From positions 10,428 through 74,427 of the forward strand of contig CAIXHP010000026.1 of the NCBI GenBank assembly GCA_903919315.1: 64,000 nt of DNA. The letters are read 5' to 3'. The notes beneath the pieces are model-generated. The model ran no database searches, had not been told where the DNA came from, and saw only the letters and a program-made list of their open reading frames with translations. Source of the DNA: an uncultured Pseudomonadota bacterium. Its GTDB lineage: Bacteria; Pseudomonadota; Alphaproteobacteria; UBA9219. How positions within the stretch are numbered: the stretch's first letter is position 1; each line of letters opens with the position of its first letter. Below, in pieces: positions 63-51,858 of this stretch. Position numbers and translations under genes: made by a program.

Positions 63-422
63 GTGGGAGCAAAATGTTACGTTGCTGCAGCCGGAAGTCA
101 AAGCTTGGATTCACTCTATATATCGACGAGTACTAGCTCTGCTGTGGCAATTATTAACAAATACGGCGAACATGCTTTTTCTATAGGCACAGGAAATCCT
201 GTAACGGGTTTTTCTGTTGACGATAATGAGACTACTGCATTTAGCGCTGCTAAAAACGGAATCGTCACAAACGTTGTTTTTGACAAAACAGGTTGGTATT
301 CGATAGGGGATTTTAGTGGTAAAATTTTGACCGCCAATAGTCGAACGGGGACTTCATTCCCTCCTTCAAGACCGGTAGAACTCCAGGCTTCGGGTGGGGC
401 AACGAATGCTCCCCAATACTAA
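63..422 (+). CDS. Hypothetical protein in a low-GC block (119 aa; Gly/Thr/Ser-rich, beta-strand-like). Possibly a fragment of a larger fibre/adhesin-like gene. GTG start is uncertain.
   Basis: ORF in the AT-rich first 850 bp, no recognisable motif. The composition contrasts with the neighbouring high-GC genes. Confidence 0.3.
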   Translation: MGAKCYVAAAGSQSLDSLYISTSTSSAVAIINKYGEHAFSIGTGNPVTGFSVDDNETTAFSAAKNGIVTNVVFDKTGWYSIGDFSGKILTANSRTGTSFPPSRPVELQASGGATNAPQY

Positions 423-879: not shown

Positions 880-2427
880 ATGCCAGCCCCTGAAACCTCT
901 GTGATGAGCCGCCTTGTTTCCCTCTGCAAACGCCGTGGATTTGTGTTTCCGGCTTCGGAGATTTACGGTGGTTTGAATGGTTTTTGGGACTTCGGCCCGC
1001 TGGGTGTGCAGCTGAAAAACAACCTGCGCGACGCTTGGTGGCGCGCGATGGTTGAATGCCCGCCCATCGGCCCGGACGGCAAGCCGGTGTCCATCGTCGG
1101 CCTCGACAGCTCGATCATCCAGCATCCGCAAACATGGGTCGCCTCAGGCCATGTCGGCGGCTTTGCCGATTTGATGGTTGATTGCCGCGAAACCAAAATG
1201 CGCTATCGCGCCGATCACGTCCTCTGCGTCAACGTGCAGTATGAAAAAGCCGGACAGACCAAAGAACTCGGCGGCTGGATCAGCACGCTGGAGGGTGACG
1301 AAGCCGAAGTCGCCATTACGAAGAAAGCCAAAAAGCTTATCCAAAAATCCGGCTGCGGCGAGATGGTGCCGTTCGACATGAGCAAAGCGGTCAATCTGAC
1401 CACCATGACGGAAGCGCAACGTGCGCACGTCATCGGCCCCGACGCCGAAAACCCCGGCACGCTGACCGAACCTCGCGCCTTTAACCTGATGTTCCAATCC
1501 TACGTCGGCGTGTTTCAGAGCGACGATTCAAAGGTCTATCTCCGCCCTGAAACGGCGCAGGGCATCTTTCTGAATTACAAAAACGTGCTGGACTCCTCGC
1601 GCGTCAAGCCGCCGTTCGGCGTGGCGCAGGTTGGCAAGTCGTTCCGCAACGAAGTCACCCCGCGTAATTTCATCTTCCGCACCCGCGAATTCGAGCAGAT
1701 GGAGATGGAATTCTTCTGCGCTCCCGAAGACGGCATGATGTGGTACGAATTCTGGGTGGCTGAGCGTCTGCGCTGGTGGGAAGAGCAGGGCATGAGCAAG
1801 GACAACCTGTTCCGCCACATCATCGCGCCCGAAGATTTGTCGCATTACTCAAAGGGCACGTCGGACATCGAATACCGCTACCCCTTTACCGCGCCGGGCT
1901 TTGGCGAGCTGGAAGGCGTTGCCTACCGCACCGACTATGACCTGACACAACATCAGACCTTTAGCAAAACCAATCTGGAATACATCGACCAAGAGGCGAA
2001 CCGCCGCTATATCCCGCATGTGGTGGAACCGGCCGCCGGTCTGACGCGCGGCCTGTTGGCGCTGCTGTGCGAAAGCTATCGCTATGACGAGAGCCGCGCT
2101 TCGCCGGAATGGCTCAAGCTCAAGCCCAGCCTCGCGCCGATCAAGGTCGGAGTCTTCCCGCTGGTGAATAAGGACGGCATGCCGGAAGTGGCGGAAAAGC
2201 TCTACGCCGACCTGCGCCGCACCTATATCAGCCAGTATGATGCCAAGCAGAGCATCGGCAAACGCTACGCTCGCATGGACGAAGCCGGAACGCCGTTCTG
2301 CGTCACCGTCGACGGCGACACGCTCAAGGATCAAACCGTCACCATCCGCGACCGCGACACCGCGCAACAAGAACGCGTGGCGCTCGACAAGGTCAAGGCA
2401 TACATCGGCGAAAAACTGGCCGTATGA
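880..2427 (+). CDS. glyQS: Glycine--tRNA ligase, homodimeric alpha2 type (class II aaRS)
   Basis: N-terminal LCKRRGFVFPASEIYGGLNGFWDFGPLGVQLKNN, typical of dimeric GlyRS. Length is about 515 aa. ATG at 880 preferred over TTG at 862. Confidence 0.9.
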   Translation: MPAPETSVMSRLVSLCKRRGFVFPASEIYGGLNGFWDFGPLGVQLKNNLRDAWWRAMVECPPIGPDGKPVSIVGLDSSIIQHPQTWVASGHVGGFADLMVDCRETKMRYRADHVLCVNVQYEKAGQTKELGGWISTLEGDEAEVAITKKAKKLIQKSGCGEMVPFDMSKAVNLTTMTEAQRAHVIGPDAENPGTLTEPRAFNLMFQSYVGVFQSDDSKVYLRPETAQGIFLNYKNVLDSSRVKPPFGVAQVGKSFRNEVTPRNFIFRTREFEQMEMEFFCAPEDGMMWYEFWVAERLRWWEEQGMSKDNLFRHIIAPEDLSHYSKGTSDIEYRYPFTAPGFGELEGVAYRTDYDLTQHQTFSKTNLEYIDQEANRRYIPHVVEPAAGLTRGLLALLCESYRYDESRASPEWLKLKPSLAPIKVGVFPLVNKDGMPEVAEKLYADLRRTYISQYDAKQSIGKRYARMDEAGTPFCVTVDGDTLKDQTVTIRDRDTAQQERVALDKVKAYIGEKLAV

Positions 2428-2429
2428 AA

Positions 2430-2450
2430 AAGGGCGCGAAAAGCGCCCTT
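2430..2450. terminator. GC hairpin (AAGGGCGC gaaaa GCGCCCTT) immediately after the glyQS stop. Putative terminator with a weak T-tract.
   Basis: Inverted repeat seen in the sequence, 3 nt after the stop codon. Confidence 0.4.
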
Positions 2451-2486
2451 CCTCTGCCGTTTGGAAACGGGCTTATACGCCAACAA

Positions 2487-2732
2487 TCAGGGGTTGGGCG
2501 CGGCAGGAGTGGCTTTTTTCATTTTCAAAGCCCAAACCGCTTCAGAAAATTCACCAATGGACTTGATATAACTAGAAACCCAAGCCACAGCATTTTTGCC
2601 GCATTCTCTGAACTCCGCCCGCACACGATCAGGTTCTTGCATACATGCCACACCAGTTGCACCCAACAACACAGCAGCAGCAGCCGAAAGAAACGCCGCC
2701 TTATACCGATAATGCTTATCATCACTCTTCAT
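2487..2732 (-). CDS. Small hypothetical protein (81 aa) with an N-terminal hydrophobic segment ending in a Cys (possible lipoprotein or signal peptide)
   Basis: ORF in a lower-GC stretch downstream of the NrdJ-like gene. LLGATGVAC motif. Weak support. Confidence 0.3.
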   Translation of the reverse strand: MKSDDKHYRYKAAFLSAAAAVLLGATGVACMQEPDRVRAEFRECGKNAVAWVSSYIKSIGEFSEAVWALKMKKATPAAPNP

Positions 2733-2879
2733 GAAACACTCCTTTCAAAGAAAAAGCACGTCGAGAGACTAAATCCCACCGGGTAAAAGTTCAAGCGCCC
2801 AAATAAATCATTGTAATATCAATGACCTAATGGCATCCCTTGACGAAGCCGTTCGGAACATAAAAACGGGGCATGCAGT

Positions 2880-31335: not shown

Positions 31336-32844
31336 ATGCCAGAGGGTTTCGTTTCCTCAATGAGTTTATGCGAAAGGGTTTTTGCTATGGCGAATTGGTT
31401 TAGCAAATTCATTGGCAGCAGGTTAGTGACCAGAGTCGGTATTCCCGATATAGACGAACACGAACTAATGGCAACGCCGAGTCCGGACTCACAATACAGG
31501 CAGACCTTCGCAGTAGAATCTATGGGAACATCTGACGCGAGTATAGTGCCCCCACGCAATGCCTTGAGGCTGCTAGCGACGGAGCAAGCAGCACGCGTCG
31601 AAACAGATCAGCCGGGACATATTGGAACTAGACAGGAAGGTGCCGATGTTACGGCGCCACCGAATGAACCCGAACCACTCGCCGCCAAGAAACCAGCCAA
31701 GATTTACAAGATGAGGCGACCTTGGCCTTTGGACTCAGGTGCCAACACGGCCCCAGACCCGCACTATACTAAGTTCCAGACCCCCACCGTTGATCGCCTT
31801 AGAGCCCACGGGAATCAAACAGCCCCTATCGACACGCCGGATTACGCGATCTACGAGACTCCTTTTTTCCTAAGGCAGCTCGGCGGCCTTATCACGCTTC
31901 CTCTATTTGCCGAGGGATTGGAAGCAAAGACAGTGGCTGGACAATCTGATATTTTACCGAGAACCATGAGTATCAGCAGACCCCAAACGGACGCCACAGA
32001 AACATATGATTGGCTCGACCTTCCTGAGTTTCTTGGAGCACATGCTTTCCCGCCAACACATAATCCGCAAGACATCCCTGCCTTTTTCCAAACACCCGCA
32101 GGGCCAACAGCCCAAGAGGAACCACCGCTCGCACCTTGGATCACACATTATACAAATGCTTTTGGTGCGCTCAGTCATGAACAGGTCGGGCCTGTCACAC
32201 ACTTCCATTTTTCGGATCGCACGCGCAGTACGGTCTCGCTCCATCGTGCCGCTGATCCGGCCCAATACCGCATCACCGCGACTCCGGGTCTGACGGATGG
32301 AATGGCCAGACTGATCGTTCTGGCGGGGCATAAAGAAATGGGCGGAATCCGCCTTGATACCGAGGCATCTCAGGACGACAAACTGAGACTGTATGTAGCC
32401 GCCCAAACGGTTCTTCTTGAGCGTATGCTTGATGATGTGAGATCAGGAAATCTGGCCACTACAAACCCAGAGTTGGTGGAAATCGTCGCAGGCCGCAGTC
32501 GGCCTCCGGTCGTTGTCTTCGAAGACGGCACAGCGCCACAGGGTGGCCTTTTCAGACCAGCGCCAGAAGTAGCTACTGCTGTTGACGCGCATATTGCCAG
32601 AACAAGACAAGAACTTCTTGCTGAGCTTCAAGCAGCCATAACTACGCCTACACAGACAGCTAATCAACCAGCGCAAGATAGCGGTCGTCTGGGGAAACCA
32701 CACAGAGCTAATCACTCTCTTCTGACCACACCGTCGCAACAGGGCAGTGCCTCGCCTCAAGGGACGGTTAGGAAAAGACGAAGCAACAGGTCTCATGCGA
32801 GTGCGCCCACCACTAGGATGCCATCACCAGGCTCCGCCATCTAA
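31336..32844 (+). CDS. Hypothetical protein (502 aa, or about 485 aa from MANWF). No recognisable domain. Lower GC than the surroundings.
   Basis: Long ORF divergent from fliF, Pro/Thr/Gln-rich, no signal peptide. Composition drop over 31100-33000. Confidence 0.5.
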   Translation: MPEGFVSSMSLCERVFAMANWFSKFIGSRLVTRVGIPDIDEHELMATPSPDSQYRQTFAVESMGTSDASIVPPRNALRLLATEQAARVETDQPGHIGTRQEGADVTAPPNEPEPLAAKKPAKIYKMRRPWPLDSGANTAPDPHYTKFQTPTVDRLRAHGNQTAPIDTPDYAIYETPFFLRQLGGLITLPLFAEGLEAKTVAGQSDILPRTMSISRPQTDATETYDWLDLPEFLGAHAFPPTHNPQDIPAFFQTPAGPTAQEEPPLAPWITHYTNAFGALSHEQVGPVTHFHFSDRTRSTVSLHRAADPAQYRITATPGLTDGMARLIVLAGHKEMGGIRLDTEASQDDKLRLYVAAQTVLLERMLDDVRSGNLATTNPELVEIVAGRSRPPVVVFEDGTAPQGGLFRPAPEVATAVDAHIARTRQELLAELQAAITTPTQTANQPAQDSGRLGKPHRANHSLLTTPSQQGSASPQGTVRKRRSNRSHASAPTTRMPSPGSAI

Positions 32845-37869: not shown

Positions 37870-37913
37870 TTATAGGTCTAAACCACTATATATTACTTAG
37901 AGATTGAAAGAAC

Positions 37914-38453
37914 ATGTCGCACACATCCGAAGCTGAAAATCTTTTTTCTCATAAAGCCATTTTCCTGTATGTCATGACAACCTATTTTAGGCTGAATGCG
38001 AGAAACCATATAAAACAAGCGCGTGCGCTCTCACTCAGCTATCACGCCATCTCGTCGGCGAAAAAGCGAAAACGACAAGAAGGCAGCGGTCTCATTCAGT
38101 TCGCCAACGCATTAACCGTTGCCGCCTCTACACTGGAAAACGGCAAGACTGATGTGTATCTGGGAAGATGCGTCAGACCAATATTACACACCGTTGAGCA
38201 AACTGATCCGGCAAATTTTCTAAATATCGATCCTAATTTGTTGAACGATGAAGTATTGGCTCGCAATCTGAAGCAATTTAGTCACGCCGTCAGAACCATA
38301 GTCGCTAAGCGCTCATTTGCCAGTTCTGCAAAAGCTATTCTAACCCGGACCAATGATCCATGGAGTTTGGAACCAATGGAACCGCGCTCATTGCCGAATA
38401 ATCCAATTAAACAAAATAGACGGCGTTGGAACTTCCGATTTGGAGGCAAATAA
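37914..38453 (+). CDS. Hypothetical protein (179 aa) in an AT-rich insertion between bamB and der
   Basis: ORF spans nearly the whole low-GC gap 37870-38540. Basic, no known motif. Confidence 0.4.
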   Translation: MSHTSEAENLFSHKAIFLYVMTTYFRLNARNHIKQARALSLSYHAISSAKKRKRQEGSGLIQFANALTVAASTLENGKTDVYLGRCVRPILHTVEQTDPANFLNIDPNLLNDEVLARNLKQFSHAVRTIVAKRSFASSAKAILTRTNDPWSLEPMEPRSLPNNPIKQNRRRWNFRFGGK

Positions 38454-38540
38454 GGGCTAGTTCGCCTAAGGGCCCTTATCATTTAAGCGCTTGCATGCCA
38501 TAAAGACGGGCATCACGGCATCCAAGAGGCTAAGTTTTTC

Positions 38541-40004
38541 ATGACGTTCACGGTCGCCATCGCAGGCCGCCCCAATGTGGGCAAATCTACTTTGTTCAAC
38601 CGTCTGTTGGGCAAGGCCATGGCTATCGTCGACGACACATCGGGCGTGACTCGCGACTGGCGCGAGGGCGAGGCCAAGTTGTTCGACCTGCGCTTTCGCC
38701 TGCTCGACACCGCCGGACTGGAAGACCTGCGCCCCAAAGGCAGCCTCGCCGCCCGCACGGCCGACCGCACCAAGTCGGCGCTGGAACAAGCCAACGTCAT
38801 CCTGATGATGGTCGATGGCCGCAACGGCCTGACCAACGACGACAAAATCATCGCCCGCGAAATCCGCAAAACCGGCAAGCCGATCATCCTGTTGGTCAAC
38901 AAATGCGAGGGCAGCAAACTGCCGCCGGGCTTCAACGAAGCCGCCGCGCTGGGTTTTGACGAGCCACTGGCCATTTCGGCGACGCACGGCGAAGGCTTCT
39001 CCGAAATGCACGAAGCCCTGTTGCCCTATGCGCCCAAGGATGCGAACGGCAAACTCATCGTCGGGCCGTCTTCGCAGGGCATGCTGGGAGGAGGGCGCAG
39101 CTGGCGCGAACGCGACCGCAAAGCCGCCGCTTCAAAAACCAAACCCACGACCGAAGAAGGCGAGTCCGCCGACGATGCCGAGGAAATGAGCCTTCACCTC
39201 GCCATCGCTGGCCGCCCGAACGCCGGAAAATCGACGCTGGTGAACAGCCTGATCGGCGAAGAACGCATGCTGACGGGGCCGGAACCGGGCCTCACCCGCG
39301 ATGCCATCCCCATCGGTTGGAGCTATCACGACAAGCCCATCCGTCTGGTCGACACCGCCGGACTACGCCGCCGCGCCCGTATCGAAGAGAAGCTGGAAAA
39401 GCTCAGTGCGCAGGAAACACTACGCGCCATCCGTCTCGCGCACGTCGTGGTTCTGGTCATCGACGCGGCGCAGCCCTTTGACAAACAGGACTACACCATC
39501 GCCCAGCATGTGGTGGAGGAAGGCCGCTGCCTCGTCGTCGCCATTAACAAATGGGACACCGTCAAGGAAAAGGTGGCCACGCTGCGCATGATCCAAGCCA
39601 AGATCGAAGTCTCGCTGGCGCAGGTAACCGGTGTGCCGCTCGTCACCATCTCGGCGCTCAACGGCGAAGGCCTCGACAAACTGATGAAGGAAGTCACGCG
39701 CATTTACGAGGTCTGGAACAAACGCATCACCACGGGCCAGCTCAACCGCTGGCTGGCTGGCATGCAAGCCGATCATCCGCCGCCCATCGTGGCAGGTCGC
39801 CGCGTCAAACTGCGCTATATGACCCAAGTCAAAGCCCGCCCGCCCACCTTCGCGGCATGGGTCAATAAGCCCGTAGACCTACCGGAAAGTTACACCCGCT
39901 TCCTCACCAACGGCCTCCGCAAAACCTTCAAACTCGAAGGCGTGCCGCTGCGCTGGCTGTTGAGGAAGGGCGAGAATCCCTATGAGGATGAGAAGAAGCG
40001 GTAG
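38541..40004 (+). CDS. der: Ribosome-associated GTPase Der (EngA), tandem GTPase domains plus KH-like domain
   Basis: Two G domains (GRPNVGKSTLFN, GRPNAGKSTLVN), DTAG motifs, 487 aa. Confidence 0.95.
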   Translation: MTFTVAIAGRPNVGKSTLFNRLLGKAMAIVDDTSGVTRDWREGEAKLFDLRFRLLDTAGLEDLRPKGSLAARTADRTKSALEQANVILMMVDGRNGLTNDDKIIAREIRKTGKPIILLVNKCEGSKLPPGFNEAAALGFDEPLAISATHGEGFSEMHEALLPYAPKDANGKLIVGPSSQGMLGGGRSWRERDRKAAASKTKPTTEEGESADDAEEMSLHLAIAGRPNAGKSTLVNSLIGEERMLTGPEPGLTRDAIPIGWSYHDKPIRLVDTAGLRRRARIEEKLEKLSAQETLRAIRLAHVVVLVIDAAQPFDKQDYTIAQHVVEEGRCLVVAINKWDTVKEKVATLRMIQAKIEVSLAQVTGVPLVTISALNGEGLDKLMKEVTRIYEVWNKRITTGQLNRWLAGMQADHPPPIVAGRRVKLRYMTQVKARPPTFAAWVNKPVDLPESYTRFLTNGLRKTFKLEGVPLRWLLRKGENPYEDEKKR

Positions 40005-40112
40005 GGGGAAAGAGATATTCATCGGATAGCTGTCGTGCGCAGTCAACTATCTTGGAAATTTTCCTCACGGAAATCGAAACCTAAACTTACAAGGAGACAC
40101 CATCGTTCATTC

Positions 40113-40721
40113 CTAGTTCTTTCTGCGCTTATCAGGCGTCCCCACATTTGACAACGGAGCTTTTGGCGCGTTTTTTAAAATTTGTTCTATAGGAATTTTT
40201 CTAACAATCTCTAGAATCTCTCTTTCTTCTTCTGCTATCTTTGTGTCAACAAACTGAACCCATGTTTTTGCTAGATCAATAATTGATTCTATTTCCACAG
40301 TTGACAAACAAGCCACCCTCGTATGCTGGCACTCGATAGAGCTAATACCTTCTTGTTCAACTCGCTCAACCCAATATCTCGCTATTGGCTGACTTTCCTC
40401 ATATGAATTGACCGAATGTGCAATATGTTTATCCCTTATCGCCATCAGACGTTCATGAAAAGCTATTTGTTGCGGAGCAAGCACCACATACCGTTGCTCA
40501 TATAAGGAGACTCTCCGTATACCACCACTAAAAACCCGTCCATACTTGATAATTGCCGCAATCATAAGTGGCTCAACATATGTGCCGAGATTATAGCCAT
40601 TTTTCTGCAGTTCACTCGCGTACTCTAGTACACACAACAAGTCGACACGAACGCTCGTGTAGTCCGAGAGACGCTGGGTATCATCTGTATTTTCTAAATG
40701 AACAAAAGCGTTTGTAGCCAT
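40113..40721 (-). CDS. Hypothetical protein (202 aa) in an AT-rich (about 40% GC) island between der and purF
   Basis: Long ORF in strongly AT-rich DNA. No recognisable domain. Glu/Ile-rich C-terminus. Confidence 0.45.
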   Translation of the reverse strand: MATNAFVHLENTDDTQRLSDYTSVRVDLLCVLEYASELQKNGYNLGTYVEPLMIAAIIKYGRVFSGGIRRVSLYEQRYVVLAPQQIAFHERLMAIRDKHIAHSVNSYEESQPIARYWVERVEQEGISSIECQHTRVACLSTVEIESIIDLAKTWVQFVDTKIAEEEREILEIVRKIPIEQILKNAPKAPLSNVGTPDKRRKN

Positions 40722-41013
40722 AGCGCCAGCCTCAACTAAGACAGAAACTATAAACGCTCAAACTGATCGCGGAAGCAAGGGATAACTCATCGGGTTAGGA
40801 TGTCAGGCAAACAGATTTCCTGATGGAATCACTCATCACCCAATTGTGCAGCAAGGCTATGGTTCAACACACAACACTCGGGCAAAATGAGCCAGACAGA
40901 AAAAACTATGGTTCGGTTAATGCTGCTTGATTTAAATTAGACTCGCCGCCTACGCGGAAATGACCATAACCGAATTCGTGCGCCCCATGACCTAGGGGAA
41001 ACTTCACCCAGAC

Positions 41014-42471
41014 CTACTCGCTCGCCTTCGCGAGAAAGGACAGTTCGCCCTGATTCACATTGCTGTTCAGGTCGGTGAGGGGGATGGGGTAGTCGCCGGT
41101 GAAGCACGCGTCGCAATACTGCGGCTCGTCGGCGTTGCGCCGCGCTTCGCCGAGGGCGCGGTAGAGGCCGTCCATTGAAACAAAGGCCAGCGTTTCCACG
41201 CCGATGTATTTTGCCATCTGCTCGATGGTGTAATTGTGGGCCAGCAGTTTCTCCGGCTCCGGCGTGTCGATGCCGTAAAAGCAGCTGTGCTTGGTCGGCG
41301 GGCTGGAAATACGCATATGGACTTCCTTCGCGCCCGCGTTGCGCACCATCTCGACGATCTTGACGGAAGTCGTGCCGCGCACGATGGAGTCGTCCAACAA
41401 CACCACGCGCTTGCCTTCGATGAAGCGGCGATTGGCGTTATGCTTCAGGCGCACGCCCAAATGGCGGATACGGTCACCCGGCTGAATGAAGGTGCGGCCC
41501 ACATAGTGGTTGCGGATAATGCCGAGGTCAAAGGGTATGCCGCTTTCCTGCGCATAGCCGATGGCTGTTGGCACGCCTGAGTCGGGAACGGGCACGACGA
41601 TGTCGGCCTCGACAGGCGCTTCTTTGGCCAACTCGATGCCGATCAACTTACGCGCCTCGTACACCGAACGGCCTTCGAGCGAGGAGTCGGGCCGCGCGAA
41701 ATAGACATACTCAAAAATGCAGAATTTGCGCGGCACCGAGGCGAAGGGCTTCAGGCTCACCAGTTCAGAGCCATCCAAAACAACCAGTTCGCCCGGCTCC
41801 ACGTCGCGGACAAACGTCGCGTCGATGATGTCGAGGGCGCACGTCTCGCTCGCCAGAACCCACGAGTCGTTGAGCTTGCCGATCACCAGAGGCCGCACGC
41901 CATGCGGGTCGCGCACGCCAAAGACCTTGCCTTGCGCCATGCAGATCAGCGAATAAGCGCCTTCGACCTGTCGCAGAGCCTCGATGAAGCGGTCAATCAC
42001 GCTGCCGCTGCGCGCGATCGCCATCAGATGAATGATGACTTCGGTGTCGGAGGTGGAGCGGAACAAACAACCGCGCTTCACCAACTGCCGCCGCAACGTG
42101 TAGGCGTTGGACAGATTGCCGTTGTGGGCGATGGCGAAACCGCCAAAATCGAAATCGGCGAAAAACGGCTGGACATTGCGCAGAGCGGTGTCGCCGGACG
42201 TGGCATAGCGAACATGGCCGATGGCGGACGAGCCAATCAGACGCTTGATAATGGCTTCGGAGTTAAACGTCTCGCCAACATGGCCCAGCGCATGATGCGA
42301 GTGAAAATGCTCGCCGTCATAACTGACGATCCCGGCGGCTTCCTGCCCGCGATGCTGAAGGGCATGCAGACCCAACGCCGTCATAGCGGTCGCGGAGTCG
42401 GAATGGATAATGCCAAACACGCCGCACTCTTCGTGCAGCTTGTCGTCGTCCAACGGGTTCGTTGTAAGCAT
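41014..42471 (-). CDS. purF: Amidophosphoribosyltransferase
   Basis: Propeptide then CGVFGI Ntn-hydrolase start. PRTase motif. 485 aa. Confidence 0.95.
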   Translation of the reverse strand: MLTTNPLDDDKLHEECGVFGIIHSDSATAMTALGLHALQHRGQEAAGIVSYDGEHFHSHHALGHVGETFNSEAIIKRLIGSSAIGHVRYATSGDTALRNVQPFFADFDFGGFAIAHNGNLSNAYTLRRQLVKRGCLFRSTSDTEVIIHLMAIARSGSVIDRFIEALRQVEGAYSLICMAQGKVFGVRDPHGVRPLVIGKLNDSWVLASETCALDIIDATFVRDVEPGELVVLDGSELVSLKPFASVPRKFCIFEYVYFARPDSSLEGRSVYEARKLIGIELAKEAPVEADIVVPVPDSGVPTAIGYAQESGIPFDLGIIRNHYVGRTFIQPGDRIRHLGVRLKHNANRRFIEGKRVVLLDDSIVRGTTSVKIVEMVRNAGAKEVHMRISSPPTKHSCFYGIDTPEPEKLLAHNYTIEQMAKYIGVETLAFVSMDGLYRALGEARRNADEPQYCDACFTGDYPIPLTDLNSNVNQGELSFLAKASE

Positions 42472-43157: not shown

Positions 43158-43365
43158 TTTCCTTACCGCCTGACCATGAACGGCCCCTGTCTAGCACAAA
43201 TCGCGGCAAAGTTAATGCTTTCCTGCAAACAAAAGGGCCGAAGATTCCGTTTTTTTGGTTCTGCCTGAAAAAGTTAACCGAAGCGGCATGAAACGGACAA
43301 AAACCTGTTTAAGCCGAAAGAAGTAAGTATGATGTCGCTATGTATCGTAATTTACGGGCTATTTT

Positions 43366-44130
43366 ATGAGTTTCGGATACACGGATCATTTAAACGTTAC
43401 GGCTGGCCTGCGGAAATTTTGCGGCCTTTGGGATATACCCTATCCCAAAGACGGCGAGTTCTTTGATGGCACAGAGAGCCAGATTTGCTTTACGCCCTTT
43501 GGCCTCGTCATACGGCTTGGGCTTGCGCCCCATCCCCTTGCCGATTATTACCATCCGCTTGTATTGCAACCACTGGCTGCTGCGAAACTGGGCGGCGGTC
43601 GCGTTCTGGAGATTCTGCCCTGGCTTGATACGAACGTGCAGGTGTGGGAGAGCCTTGATTTTGCCGACAGACTCATCCAAGCAACGGAGCCTGACTGGCA
43701 TTGGGCGCACGATCACGTTGCCCGGCGCAATCATGGTCGATTCTCCTGCGAGGATGAGGACATTATCGTCTTGATCGACCGTGGAATGCTGGCGGAAAAC
43801 CGCAGCGCAAAAACGGATCGCGGAACGCAAGGGAAGAACCATAGGTTTCGGCAACAAGCCGACATGTTTGCGACACGATCGCCGCAGGCAAAAGTTTTCA
43901 CCCCATTGAGCAAAGAACTGCGCAAAGCATGCCCCGACGGACTAATGCAGCCCCCGGATAAGCTAAAATTGCAAATATTCTTGGAAAAATGCATGCGAAT
44001 GGCCAACGGCAGCCAACGCGCGCCCCTGACAACGCAAATCCCCAACATCGTTCGGGCAGAGGCCCCTGACCTAAACCGCTATCTACGCGCCACCCGCCAT
44101 CAGTTCTTGCGCCAAGCGGCACCATGCTAG
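43366..44130 (+). CDS. Hypothetical protein (254 aa)
   Basis: ORF with an AT-rich upstream region. No recognisable motif. Trp/His-rich centre. Confidence 0.45.
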   Translation: MSFGYTDHLNVTAGLRKFCGLWDIPYPKDGEFFDGTESQICFTPFGLVIRLGLAPHPLADYYHPLVLQPLAAAKLGGGRVLEILPWLDTNVQVWESLDFADRLIQATEPDWHWAHDHVARRNHGRFSCEDEDIIVLIDRGMLAENRSAKTDRGTQGKNHRFRQQADMFATRSPQAKVFTPLSKELRKACPDGLMQPPDKLKLQIFLEKCMRMANGSQRAPLTTQIPNIVRAEAPDLNRYLRATRHQFLRQAAPC

Positions 44131-51189: not shown

Positions 51190-51858
51190 TTACTTAGGTG
51201 TGGCGACTCTGGCAAGCAACCCGGCCAAATACTCTCTACGAAACGGTATTAGCGTCTTCGCAGCAGCCACATTATTGGCTCTAGCTTCCTCTGAGGTATC
51301 AAAGCCTTTTTTAGCGGAAATATCTGCCACGGTTTTGTTACAGATGTCTTGAGCCGCTGTTGCATAAAAAACAGCATTGCCAAGATCCATGGGCAGATCA
51401 CCCTTATACGGCTGACAGCCCGTTGTGTCATAACTGTCCTTTTTAGCAGGAGGACTACACGTTAAGGCAACCGCGTCACGCTCTGGCGGAAACAACATGA
51501 CGAGGGTGTTCTTATCGTTTGTTGCGTCAACCGTTACGGCTACCAAAGTGCCGTCAATCTTTGACAGGCTAAGAGGACGGTCGAGCGCTTTGCCATATCC
51601 GGAAATGACATAAGAATAACCGTCAAGGCCAACATCGCGCCCTGCCGTACCCGTATCACTGGAATCGAGTTTGATGCCGCAATTGTGTTCAAAGGTACTT
51701 TTCTTGATGTATCCTGTGACTTTCAGAAAACTAGGATATTGATCCACCGACGCAACCTGAGCCCCCAGCTCCTGCTGTTCGCCCGCCTGCGCGCCCCCCC
51801 CTGCCACCAACGCAGCCGCAAAGGCAAAAGAAGACCACTTACCTGCACGATTGATCAT
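51190..51858 (-). CDS. Secreted hypothetical protein (222 aa, signal peptide, 4 Cys)
   Basis: N-terminal AFAAALVAGGGAQAGE signal-like region. Lower-GC gene body. Own terminator. Confidence 0.5.
   Translation of the reverse strand: MINRAGKWSSFAFAAALVAGGGAQAGEQQELGAQVASVDQYPSFLKVTGYIKKSTFEHNCGIKLDSSDTGTAGRDVGLDGYSYVISGYGKALDRPLSLSKIDGTLVAVTVDATNDKNTLVMLFPPERDAVALTCSPPAKKDSYDTTGCQPYKGDLPMDLGNAVFYATAAQDICNKTVADISAKKGFDTSEEARANNVAAAKTLIPFRREYLAGLLARVATPK

What the first reader, a model, noticed from the sequence alone, without database searches (positions are those of the whole stretch)
40005..41013. About 1 kb AT-rich (about 40% GC) single-gene island between der and purF encoding a 202-aa orphan protein
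GC content drops sharply right after the der stop and recovers at purF. The only gene (40113-40721, minus strand) has no recognisable domain. Single-gene low-GC insertions flanked by conserved core genes are typical sites for horizontally acquired toxin/immunity, abortive-infection or other defence genes. The protein is cytoplasmic-looking, with no signal peptide or TM segment, and has an acidic Glu/Ile-rich C-terminus.
Basis: seen in the sequence. Interest (0 to 1): 0.55.

Follow-up and report, generated by a model that had tools for sequence, protein, structure and literature searches.

The report
Acquired solo HEPN (AbiU2-like) nuclease gene
The AT-rich 1-kb insert between der and purF is real and carries one gene, which is not an orphan: it belongs to a widespread, unannotated family of stand-alone HEPN-type predicted RNases, distantly AbiU2-like, that hop between bacterial genomes and are plausible single-gene anti-phage suicide effectors.

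Summary
Window 40005-41013 has 0.44 GC against about 0.60 in the flanks. The single ORF (40113-40721, minus strand, 202 aa) has the lowest GC of about 56 ORFs in the window, with GC3 of 0.37 against 0.78 for der and purF.

Relatives whose Der is 71% identical have der and purF directly adjacent, so this is an insertion.

"Orphan" is wrong. The protein has more than 750 homologues, about 205 aa long, patchily spread over many phyla. All are "hypothetical", almost all have lower GC than their host, and none has a conserved neighbour gene.

No Pfam, NCBIfam, PADLOC or PHROG model matches at threshold. Three lines point to a HEPN domain with an intact active-site motif:
- An invariant F-R96-D-K-H-I-A-H102-S-V-N-x-F-E motif (Rx5H).
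- Two AlphaFold models (pLDDT 88-90) that place this motif at the end of helix 3 of a four-helix bundle.

Best reading: a horizontally acquired solo HEPN RNase, probably a trigger-activated abortive-infection or conflict effector like HepS or solo AbiU2 cassettes. RNase activity and the defence role are inferred, not shown. This is a new family of a known kind and of moderate interest.

The parts
40005..41013 (.). Low-GC islet (1009 bp, GC 0.44) filling the convergent der/purF junction. This is the inserted segment, and its exact ends are not definable.
   Evidence: GC profile. Relatives L122/L123 and L124 have no gene here. No terminal direct or inverted repeats, tandem repeats or Rfam hits.
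40113..40721 (-). Gene for a 202-aa stand-alone HEPN-like protein, from an unannotated family that is distantly AbiU2-like.
40416..40436 (-). Codons for R96-D-K-H-I-A-H102, the predicted Rx5H HEPN catalytic motif.
   Evidence: Read directly from the sequence (AGG GAT AAA CAT ATT GCA CAT on the minus strand). R96 and H102 are invariant in A1 and at least 90% conserved in A2. The motif sits at the end of helix 83-101, where HEPN motifs sit (PMC3710099).
40398..40439 (-). Extended family signature F95-RDKHIAHSVNxFE-E108. S103, V104, N105 and E108 are invariant, and E108 starts the beta-hairpin.
   Evidence: Alignments A1, A2 and A4. This pattern retrieved 78 genomic loci.
40515..40544 (-). Codons for Y60-x-R62-x-F64-x-x-G67-x-R69, the second invariant block. 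It lies at the end of helix 2 and the start of the helix-2/helix-3 insert.
   Evidence: Invariant columns in A1. R62 is invariant in A2. Position taken from the models.
40730..40733 (-). Shine-Dalgarno-like GAGG, 8 nt upstream of the ATG.
   Evidence: Read from the sequence.
40722..41013 (-). 292-nt spacer between the purF stop and the gene start. The gene is co-directional with cvpA-purF. No sigma-70-like promoter or intrinsic terminator was found, so read-through from purF is possible.
   Evidence: folding z-score +1.1, so no structured RNA; no Rfam match.
38541..40004 (+). Flank: der (ribosome-biogenesis GTPase Der), a core gene.
   Evidence: Pfam domains. Homologues are named Der.
41014..42471 (-). 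Flank: purF (amidophosphoribosyltransferase), a core gene in the cvpA-purF unit.
   Evidence: Pfam domains. 74% identical to the purF of L083.

Best explanation
A roughly 0.9-1 kb piece of foreign, AT-rich DNA was inserted into the short convergent spacer between der and purF of an uncultured alphaproteobacterium. It carries one gene for a 202-aa cytoplasmic protein.

The protein is a stand-alone HEPN domain. It has four core helices, an insert between helices 2 and 3, and the catalytic Rx5H motif (R96...H102) at the end of helix 3, followed by a family-specific beta-hairpin.

By analogy with other HEPN proteins, it most likely dimerises so that two Rx5H motifs form a metal-independent RNase site. 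It is most likely kept inactive until a trigger such as a phage protein switches it on. It would then cut cellular RNA (tRNA, mRNA or rRNA) and stop growth. That makes it a single-gene abortive-infection or conflict effector of the HepS / solo-AbiU2 type, with no antitoxin partner.

Shown here: the insertion, the protein family, the fold, the conserved motif and the absence of a conserved partner. Inferred: RNase activity, dimerisation, trigger control and the defence role.
For: Insertion:
- GC3 is 0.37 against 0.78 in the flanks.
- The site is empty in relatives L122/L123 and L124.
- The same site holds a different low-GC ORF in L083.

Real, mobile family:
- 751 profile hits of about 205 aa.
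- 78 loci in Alpha-, Beta-, Gamma- and Deltaproteobacteria, Nitrospirota, Acidobacteriota, Actinomycetota, Planctomycetota, Patescibacteria and one Bathyarchaeia genome.
- The gene has lower GC than its flanks in most loci, for example 0.40 against 0.70 in L012.
- The closest homologue (56% identity) abuts a tyrosine integrase. Three plasmid copies exist.

HEPN assignment:
- R96, K98, H102, S103, N105 and E108 are invariant.
- D or N follows the R, as is typical for HEPN (PMC3710099).
- Two independent AF2 models (pLDDT 89.5 and 88.5) give H1, H2, insert, H3 ending in the motif, a beta-hairpin, then H4. [quoted passage not shown]
- 12 of 69 members, and the family consensus (E 0.0054, over the motif region), match Pfam HEPN_AbiU2. 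Single members match AbiJ and CARF_HEPN in PADLOC.

Solo status:
- No neighbour family recurs in more than 4 of 78 loci.
- The Pfam content of neighbours is heterogeneous housekeeping.
- There are no tandem repeats and no structured RNA.

Precedent:
- HepS is a solo HEPN abortive-infection anticodon nuclease with no partner (PMC13043305).
- A solo AbiU2-domain integron cassette protects against T4 and T7 (bioRxiv 10.64898/2026.03.17.712381).
Against: - No curated model reaches threshold. HEPN_AbiU2 scores 16.7 bits against a cut-off of 26.8, and ten divergent members give nothing.
- Foldseek against PDB and BFVD gives no significant hit. The best is E 0.2-0.35, although the highest probability (0.89) is again a HEPN toxin. 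A PDB sequence-profile search finds nothing.
- The helix-2 acidic Ex3[KR] element described for many HEPN families is not evident. The invariant acidic residue D27 lies in helix 1.
- The gene is not in a defence island, has no PADLOC family, and is nearly absent from viral contigs, with 1 locus in IMG/VR.
- It is 100% conserved in all contigs of this species from other samples, so no within-species presence/absence polymorphism was seen.
- No experimental data exist for any family member.
Confidence: 0.55

Rival explanations
1. It is a HEPN-fold protein but not a defence gene. It could be an accessory RNA-processing or stress RNase, or a catalytically silent RNA- or nucleotide-binding module, that happens to be horizontally mobile.
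For: Neighbours in 78 loci are ordinary metabolic and housekeeping genes, not defence genes. PADLOC gives no consistent hit. The gene is often placed closely downstream of a co-directional host gene (48 of 65 loci), here purF. It is fixed and identical in all sampled contigs of the species.
Against: A strictly conserved Rx5H motif argues for catalysis. Patchy distribution with a strong GC deficit in almost every host is typical of conflict genes rather than of a useful housekeeping function. The 74% co-directionality is about what any bacterial gene shows. Characterised solo HEPN proteins of this size are defence or toxin effectors.
Confidence: 0.2
2. It is the toxin of a toxin-antitoxin or addiction module. 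The antitoxin would be unrecognised: a very small ORF, an antisense or cis RNA, or a protein encoded elsewhere.
For: The best structural matches are HEPN toxins of HEPN-MNT toxin-antitoxin pairs. The closest homologue lies next to an integrase and some copies are on plasmids. Small ORFs of 33-35 aa exist in the 292-bp upstream spacer.
Against: No MNT or any other recurrent neighbour was found in 78 loci. Many homologues have only 25-70 nt to the next gene, leaving no room for a partner. There are no tandem repeats of the type III ToxI kind, no Rfam hit and no stable RNA fold. Flanking DNA is not conserved between loci.
Confidence: 0.1
3. It is not a HEPN domain at all. It is an unrelated helical protein whose conserved R, K, H, S, N and E residues form some other active or binding site, and the HEPN resemblance is generic four-helix-bundle similarity.
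Confidence: 0.15
4. The ORF is a chance open frame in AT-rich intergenic DNA and not a gene.
For: No sigma-70-like promoter was found upstream. The composition is atypical for the host.
Against: There are hundreds of full-length homologues at 25-57% identity with conserved length, N-terminus and motifs. The structure prediction is confident. A Shine-Dalgarno-like sequence is present.
Confidence: 0.01

Closest known systems
HEPN_AbiU2 (Pfam PF18734; AbiU2 of the Lactococcus lactis AbiU abortive-infection locus, classified as HEPN by Anantharaman et al. 2013, PMC3710099)
   Same: It is the only Pfam family matched recurrently: 12 of 69 members, and the consensus at E 0.0054 over the motif region. 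Both have an R-[D/N]-K-x-x-A-H type Rx4-6H motif, are about 200 aa, are bacterial, and occur in stand-alone versions. A solo AbiU2-domain cassette gives phage resistance.
   Different: The score of 16.7 bits is below the 26.8-bit gathering cut-off, and the window protein itself gives no hit. The Sel1-repeat or restriction-modification operon context described for AbiU2 is absent. The family has its own extended AHSVNxFE signature and a beta-hairpin after the motif.
HepS (solo HEPN abortive-infection anticodon nuclease of the Salmonella Gifsy-1 prophage; PMC13043305)
   Different: HepS is prophage-borne, whereas this family is almost absent from viral contigs and sits between core genes. The oligomeric state and trigger of this family are unknown.
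HEPN toxins of HEPN-MNT toxin-antitoxin systems (PDB 7ae2/7ae6, 5yep, 8xdj; YutE 1ylm)
   Different: Sequence identity is 3-10%. There is no adjacent MNT nucleotidyltransferase antitoxin in any of 78 loci. This protein is about 60 residues longer, with a beta-hairpin insert and a basic C-terminal tail.
Integron-cassette HEPN (PDB 3jrt) and other single-gene HEPN cassettes
   Different: No attC-like inverted repeat, integron integrase or cassette array flanks the gene. No flanking DNA is conserved between loci.

Membership tests
HEPN superfamily | Four-helix up-down bundle made of two alpha-hairpins | tested here: met
HEPN superfamily | [quoted passage not shown] | tested here: met
   R96-DKHIA-H102 (Rx5H) is invariant in A1 and at least 90% conserved in A2. 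It lies at the C-terminal end of helix 83-101 or 87-104. The criterion comes from PMC3710099.
HEPN superfamily | Polar residue (N, D or H) immediately after the conserved R | tested here: met
   D97 is conserved in at least 90% of A1. N, S or Q occurs in divergent members.
HEPN superfamily | [quoted passage not shown] | tested here: met
   Residues 63-82 form a loop plus a short helix (74-80) and carry the invariant R62, G67 and R69.
HEPN superfamily | Second conserved acidic residue in helix 2 (Ex3[K/R]), present in many but not all families | tested here: inconclusive
   No invariant acidic residue is seen in helix 2. The invariant D27 is in helix 1 and E108 follows the motif. The coordinates could not be inspected to judge proximity to the motif.
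HEPN superfamily | Dimerisation that juxtaposes two Rx4-6H motifs; metal-independent RNase activity | not testable with these tools
   Only single-chain prediction was available, and no biochemistry.
HEPN_AbiU2 (PF18734) | Score at or above the Pfam gathering threshold (26.8 bits) | tested here: not met
   The window protein gives no hit at E<=1. The consensus scores 16.7 bits, E 0.0054. 12 of 69 members have E<=0.1, best 0.0076. 0 of 10 divergent members hit.
HEPN_AbiU2 (PF18734) | Genomic association with a Sel1-repeat gene or restriction-modification operons (Table 1 of PMC3710099) | tested here: not met
   No recurrent neighbour was found, and there is no Sel1 or restriction-modification enrichment among 140 flanking ORFs of 78 loci.
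HEPN-MNT type II/VII toxin-antitoxin | Adjacent minimal nucleotidyltransferase (MNT) antitoxin gene | tested here: not met
   There is none in the window. No nucleotidyltransferase family is among the top neighbour Pfams.
Type III toxin-antitoxin (ToxIN / AbiQ-like) | Tandem array of roughly 35-nt repeats upstream of the toxin gene | tested here: not met
   TRF finds 0 arrays in 39900-41100. The upstream RNA folding z-score is +1.1. There is no Rfam match.
Integron gene cassette | attC imperfect inverted repeat at the cassette end; integron integrase or cassette array nearby | tested here: not met
   No convincing inverted repeats flank the ORF. The flanks are der and purF.
Known anti-phage defence systems (PADLOC-DB 2.0) | Match to a PADLOC protein model | tested here: not met
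   The window protein has 0 hits. Of 69 members, there are only isolated single hits: AbiJ at 3e-4 and CARF_HEPN at 0.018.
Genomic island (horizontally acquired accessory DNA) | Deviant composition plus absence from the same site in related genomes | tested here: met
   GC3 is 0.37 against 0.78. der and purF are directly adjacent in L122/L123 and L124, where Der is 71% identical. The content differs in L083. No strain-level polymorphism was seen, because all same-species contigs carry the gene.

The most novel reading that the evidence does not exclude
This roughly 205-aa family would be a previously unrecognised, widespread single-gene abortive-infection system. It would be a solo, default-off HEPN RNase, perhaps an anticodon nuclease, that senses a phage component directly. 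It is missing from Pfam, PADLOC and DefenseFinder-type catalogues because it does not live in defence islands. Instead it spreads as a bare, promoter-poor single ORF dropped into spacers between core genes.
Probability: 0.3. Interest if true: 0.55.

Novelty: new variant of a known kind. Interest (0 to 1): 0.4.

Why it matters
If the inference holds, this adds a large family to the set of solo HEPN effectors. The family has more than 750 sequences in over 10 phyla, is completely unannotated, and is invisible to current defence-system catalogues.

It also lies outside defence islands, so guilt-by-association screens cannot find it. That makes it a concrete, cheap test case: one 0.6-kb gene with two obvious catalytic point mutants. 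It could be used to ask how partner-less HEPN RNases are kept silent and what triggers them.

For genome annotation, the finding converts an 'orphan hypothetical' into a predicted RNase. It also flags the der/purF and bamB/der junctions of this alphaproteobacterial lineage as recurrent landing sites for small AT-rich genes.

Tried and rejected
- Direct HMM scans of the window protein against Pfam, PADLOC, NCBIfam and PHROGs gave nothing, apart from phrog_8440 at E 0.11.
- A PDB sequence-profile search gave 0 hits at E<=10.
- Foldseek against PDB and BFVD gave nothing significant. The afdb50 library was unavailable.
- A profile search of the 5.8-billion-protein set, meant to find bridging proteins annotated PF18734, listed only family members without Pfam annotation.
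- A Pfam scan of ten divergent members gave no hits.
- The supplement of Anantharaman 2013, sought for AbiU2 alignments to run hhalign, is not held. No rigorous profile-profile test against AbiU2 could therefore be run.
- A conserved partner gene was sought by all-against-all BLAST of neighbours in 78 loci, and none was found.
- Defence-island context was rejected.
- Phage origin was rejected, with 1 locus in IMG/VR.
- Mobile-element ends, attC, tandem repeats, a riboswitch or sRNA, and a structured 5' region were all sought and none was found.
- Conserved flanking DNA between loci, which would define a mobile unit, was not found. Similarity is confined to the coding motif region.
- Upstream co-directionality (48 of 65 loci, p=1.5e-4 against 50%) was considered as evidence for promoterless cassettes. 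It was set aside because about 70-75% co-directionality is the normal bacterial background.
- A metagenome scan with Der found only distant relatives, at most 62% identity. Closer ones came from the protein search.

Full report
**1. The observation**

The region is as described. GC is 0.59-0.64 inside der. It falls to 0.39-0.45 immediately after the der stop (40004) and returns to 0.59-0.61 at the purF stop (41014).

In 500-bp bins, 40001-40500 (0.414) is the lowest of the whole 64-kb window. The 1009-bp spacer has 0.44 GC.

The only ORF longer than 60 aa is 40113-40721 on the minus strand, 202 aa. Its GC is 0.417 and its GC3 is 0.369, against GC3 of 0.785 (der), 0.78 (purF) and 0.76 (the bamB-like gene). 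It has the lowest GC of about 56 non-overlapping ORFs in the window.

A GAGG lies 8 nt upstream of the ATG. The N-terminus MATN.F is conserved across homologues, which fixes the start.

The flanks are correctly named. The der product has two MMR_HSR1 GTPase domains plus KH_dom-like, and its homologues are named Der. The purF product has GATase_6/7 plus Pribosyltran.

**2. It is an insertion**

The host is an uncultured alphaproteobacterium. Its nearest Der homologues (62-78% identity) are labelled 'MAG: Alphaproteobacteria bacterium' or 'Rhodospirillaceae'.

Two relatives with 71% identical Der keep the whole synteny of TPR_21, bamB-like, der facing purF, cvpA and radA, and neither has a gene between der and purF:
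- L122/L123 has a 187-bp spacer made of a REP-like palindrome.
- L124 has no gene there. Its original der 3' end lies only about 20 bp from purF.

A more distant relative (L083, Der 62% and PurF 74% identical) has the same synteny, but the interval holds a different low-GC 451-aa ORF plus an EpmA-like gene.

So the der/purF junction is a variable slot, and the 202-aa gene is accessory at this site.

Within the species itself no polymorphism was seen. Contigs from at least four other samples carry the gene, and three of them are 100% identical over the islet.

No terminal direct or inverted repeats, tandem repeats, tRNA, integrase or Rfam element mark the ends. The exact boundaries and the insertion mechanism are therefore unknown.

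**3. It is not an orphan**

- A single-sequence search finds 106 homologues (34-57% identity, about 205 aa), all 'hypothetical' and without Pfam annotation.
- An exhaustive phmmer search over 1.84 billion cluster representatives finds 572 clusters at E<=1e-3.
- A profile search finds 751 proteins.
- A pattern scan of one genome per GTDB species finds 78 loci. They come from Alpha-, Beta-, Gamma- and Deltaproteobacteria, Nitrospirota, Acidobacteriota, Actinomycetota, Planctomycetota, Omnitrophota, Patescibacteria, Chloroflexota and one Bathyarchaeia MAG.

This is a thin, patchy distribution.

In most loci the gene has lower GC than its 3-kb flanks. Examples are 0.40 against 0.70 in L012, 0.40 against 0.64/0.60 in L010, and 0.40 against 0.61 in L043.

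Three plasmids carry divergent copies. The closest homologue (P0002, 56%) abuts a tyrosine integrase. IMG/VR has a single locus.

**4. No partner and no defence island**

All-against-all BLAST of ORFs within ±3.5 kb in the 78 loci gives no neighbour cluster present in more than 4 loci.

A Pfam scan of the 140 nearest flanking ORFs returns 109 different families. They include aconitase, chorismate synthase, ThiG, amidase, RtcB and ABC transporters, and none occurs in more than 2 loci.

DNA similarity between loci is confined to the coding motif region.

The upstream neighbour is co-directional in 48 of 65 loci, often less than 100 nt away. That is roughly the bacterial background, so it is not evidence for a cassette mechanism.

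In the window the gene is co-directional with cvpA-purF, 292 nt downstream of purF. No promoter-like or terminator-like site lies in between, so read-through expression is possible.

**5. What the protein is**

Curated libraries give nothing for the window protein.

The family alignment shows two invariant blocks:
- Y60-x-R62-x-F64-x-x-G67-x-R69.
- H89 ... F-R96-D-K98-H-I-A-H102-S-V-N105-x-F-E108.

R96-x5-H102 with D (or N) after the R is the Rx4-6H signature of HEPN RNases as defined by Anantharaman et al. 2013. [quoted passage not shown] It notes that HEPN domains typically carry an insert between helices 2 and 3, and that Csx1 has a beta-hairpin right after the motif (PMC3710099).

Two AlphaFold models agree with this layout: the window protein (pLDDT 89.5, pTM 0.82) and homologue P0060 at 36% identity (pLDDT 88.5). 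The layout is helix 1 (about 12-43), helix 2 (about 51-66), an insert with a short helix, helix 3 ending in the motif, a beta-hairpin, helix 4 (about 141-179), then a flexible basic tail.

At the sequence level, 12 of 69 diverse members hit Pfam HEPN_AbiU2 at E<=0.1. No other family is hit by more than 2 members. The family consensus hits it at E 0.0054 (16.7 bits, residues 79-153 against profile positions 108-162, the motif region). In PADLOC, single members touch AbiJ (3e-4) and CARF_HEPN.

Caveats:
- All these sequence matches are below curated thresholds.
- Foldseek is non-significant, although its highest probabilities (0.87-0.89) are again for a HEPN toxin.
- I could not run a profile-profile test against AbiU2.

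I put HEPN superfamily membership at about 0.8. I treat the family as a distinct HEPN family whose nearest described relative is AbiU2, not as a member of PF18734.

**6. How it most likely works**

Established knowledge of HEPN domains says that two protomers juxtapose their Rx4-6H motifs to form a metal-independent RNase site that leaves 2',3'-cyclic phosphate ends (PMC3710099).

A catalytic HEPN with no antitoxin must be silent by default. The recently described HepS is exactly that: a solo HEPN protein with no co-occurring partner. It is non-toxic when overexpressed, is allosterically activated by a phage tail-tip protein, then cleaves tRNA anticodon loops and aborts infection (PMC13043305).

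A solo AbiU2-domain integron cassette from Vibrio mimicus was reported to protect against T4 and T7 (bioRxiv 10.64898/2026.03.17.712381).

The most likely mechanism here is therefore a trigger-activated solo HEPN RNase acting in abortive infection or another genetic conflict. The second invariant basic block (R62, R69) and the conserved basic C-terminal tail (R200) are candidates for RNA binding.

Shown: the insertion, the family, the fold, the motif and the lack of a partner. Inferred: RNase activity, oligomerisation, trigger control and the defence role.

The absence of any defence-island context and of PADLOC hits keeps the defence role at roughly even odds.

**7. Rivals**

- A non-defence HEPN RNase or RNA-binding module (0.2).
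- A toxin with an unrecognised antitoxin (0.1). Tight spacing to neighbours in many loci, and the absence of repeats or RNA structure, argue against it.
- Not HEPN at all (0.15).
- Not a gene (about 0). The family conservation refutes this.

**8. Novelty and verdict**

'Orphan without a domain' is wrong.

The object is a new, unannotated family of a well-known kind: solo HEPN effectors. A specialist would not be very surprised. Even so, the family's size, its invisibility to current catalogues and its non-island lifestyle make it a reasonable candidate for experimental testing.

Interest is 0.4.

Noticed in passing
window 37870-38540 (ORF 37914-38453, + strand): This is a second low-GC single-gene islet (GC 0.45, GC3 0.44), between the bamB-like gene and der. 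It encodes a 179-aa protein with no Pfam, PADLOC, NCBIfam or PHROG hit. The same slot is 8 bp in L122, but it holds other unrelated ORFs in L083 (259 aa, Ser/Thr-rich), in L124 (a DUF4096 fragment plus a 133-aa ORF) and in the P0314 contig (193 aa). It is therefore another variable landing site.
   Followed up: partly
window 63-422 (+), 2424-2786 (+), 31336-32844 (+), 51190-51858 (-): These are further ORFs with clearly lower GC and GC3 than the host (GC3 0.34-0.53 against about 0.75) and no Pfam match. The genome seems peppered with small AT-rich genes of unknown function between core genes.
   Followed up: partly
L122 6522-6708; L124 6366-6657: The 'empty' der/purF spacers of relatives contain REP/MITE-like palindromes, such as GTCATTCCCGCGAAAGCGGGAATCCAGCG and its complement in L122. 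In L124 a remnant of the der 3' end (coding LRKGENPYED..) lies about 230 bp beyond the called der stop. This suggests a small palindrome-rich insertion into the der 3' end.
   Followed up: no
L083 6457-7812 (+) and 7823-8974 (-): In a relative with the same synteny, the der/purF interval holds a different low-GC (0.36-0.47) 451-aa ORF with a signal-peptide-like N-terminus, plus an EpmA/GenX-like gene.
   Followed up: no
L078 3373-4863 (Legionella drancourtii LLAP12): This is a 496-aa protein with two tandem copies of the family domain, joined by a GNPVA repeat linker. The first copy keeps R-D-M-H-V-A-H-S-V-N, and the second copy appears to have lost the motif. It may be a built-in pseudo-dimer.
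   Followed up: no
window 40857-40865 and 40906-40914: An exact 9-nt direct repeat, CTATGGTTC, occurs 49 nt apart in the 292-nt spacer upstream of the gene. About 0.15 such pairs are expected by chance in a spacer of this size. It could be an operator or mean nothing.
   Followed up: no
L112 131-1737: The closest homologue (56% identity, GC 0.40) is convergent with a tyrosine integrase gene (GC 0.54) and overlaps it by 4 bp. This is the only hint of a vehicle for the family.
   Followed up: partly
window 43160-43400: Another GC dip (0.44-0.48) lies between cvpA and radA. Public gene calls place a Pfam-less 114-aa gene there (L079 1018-1362).
   Followed up: no
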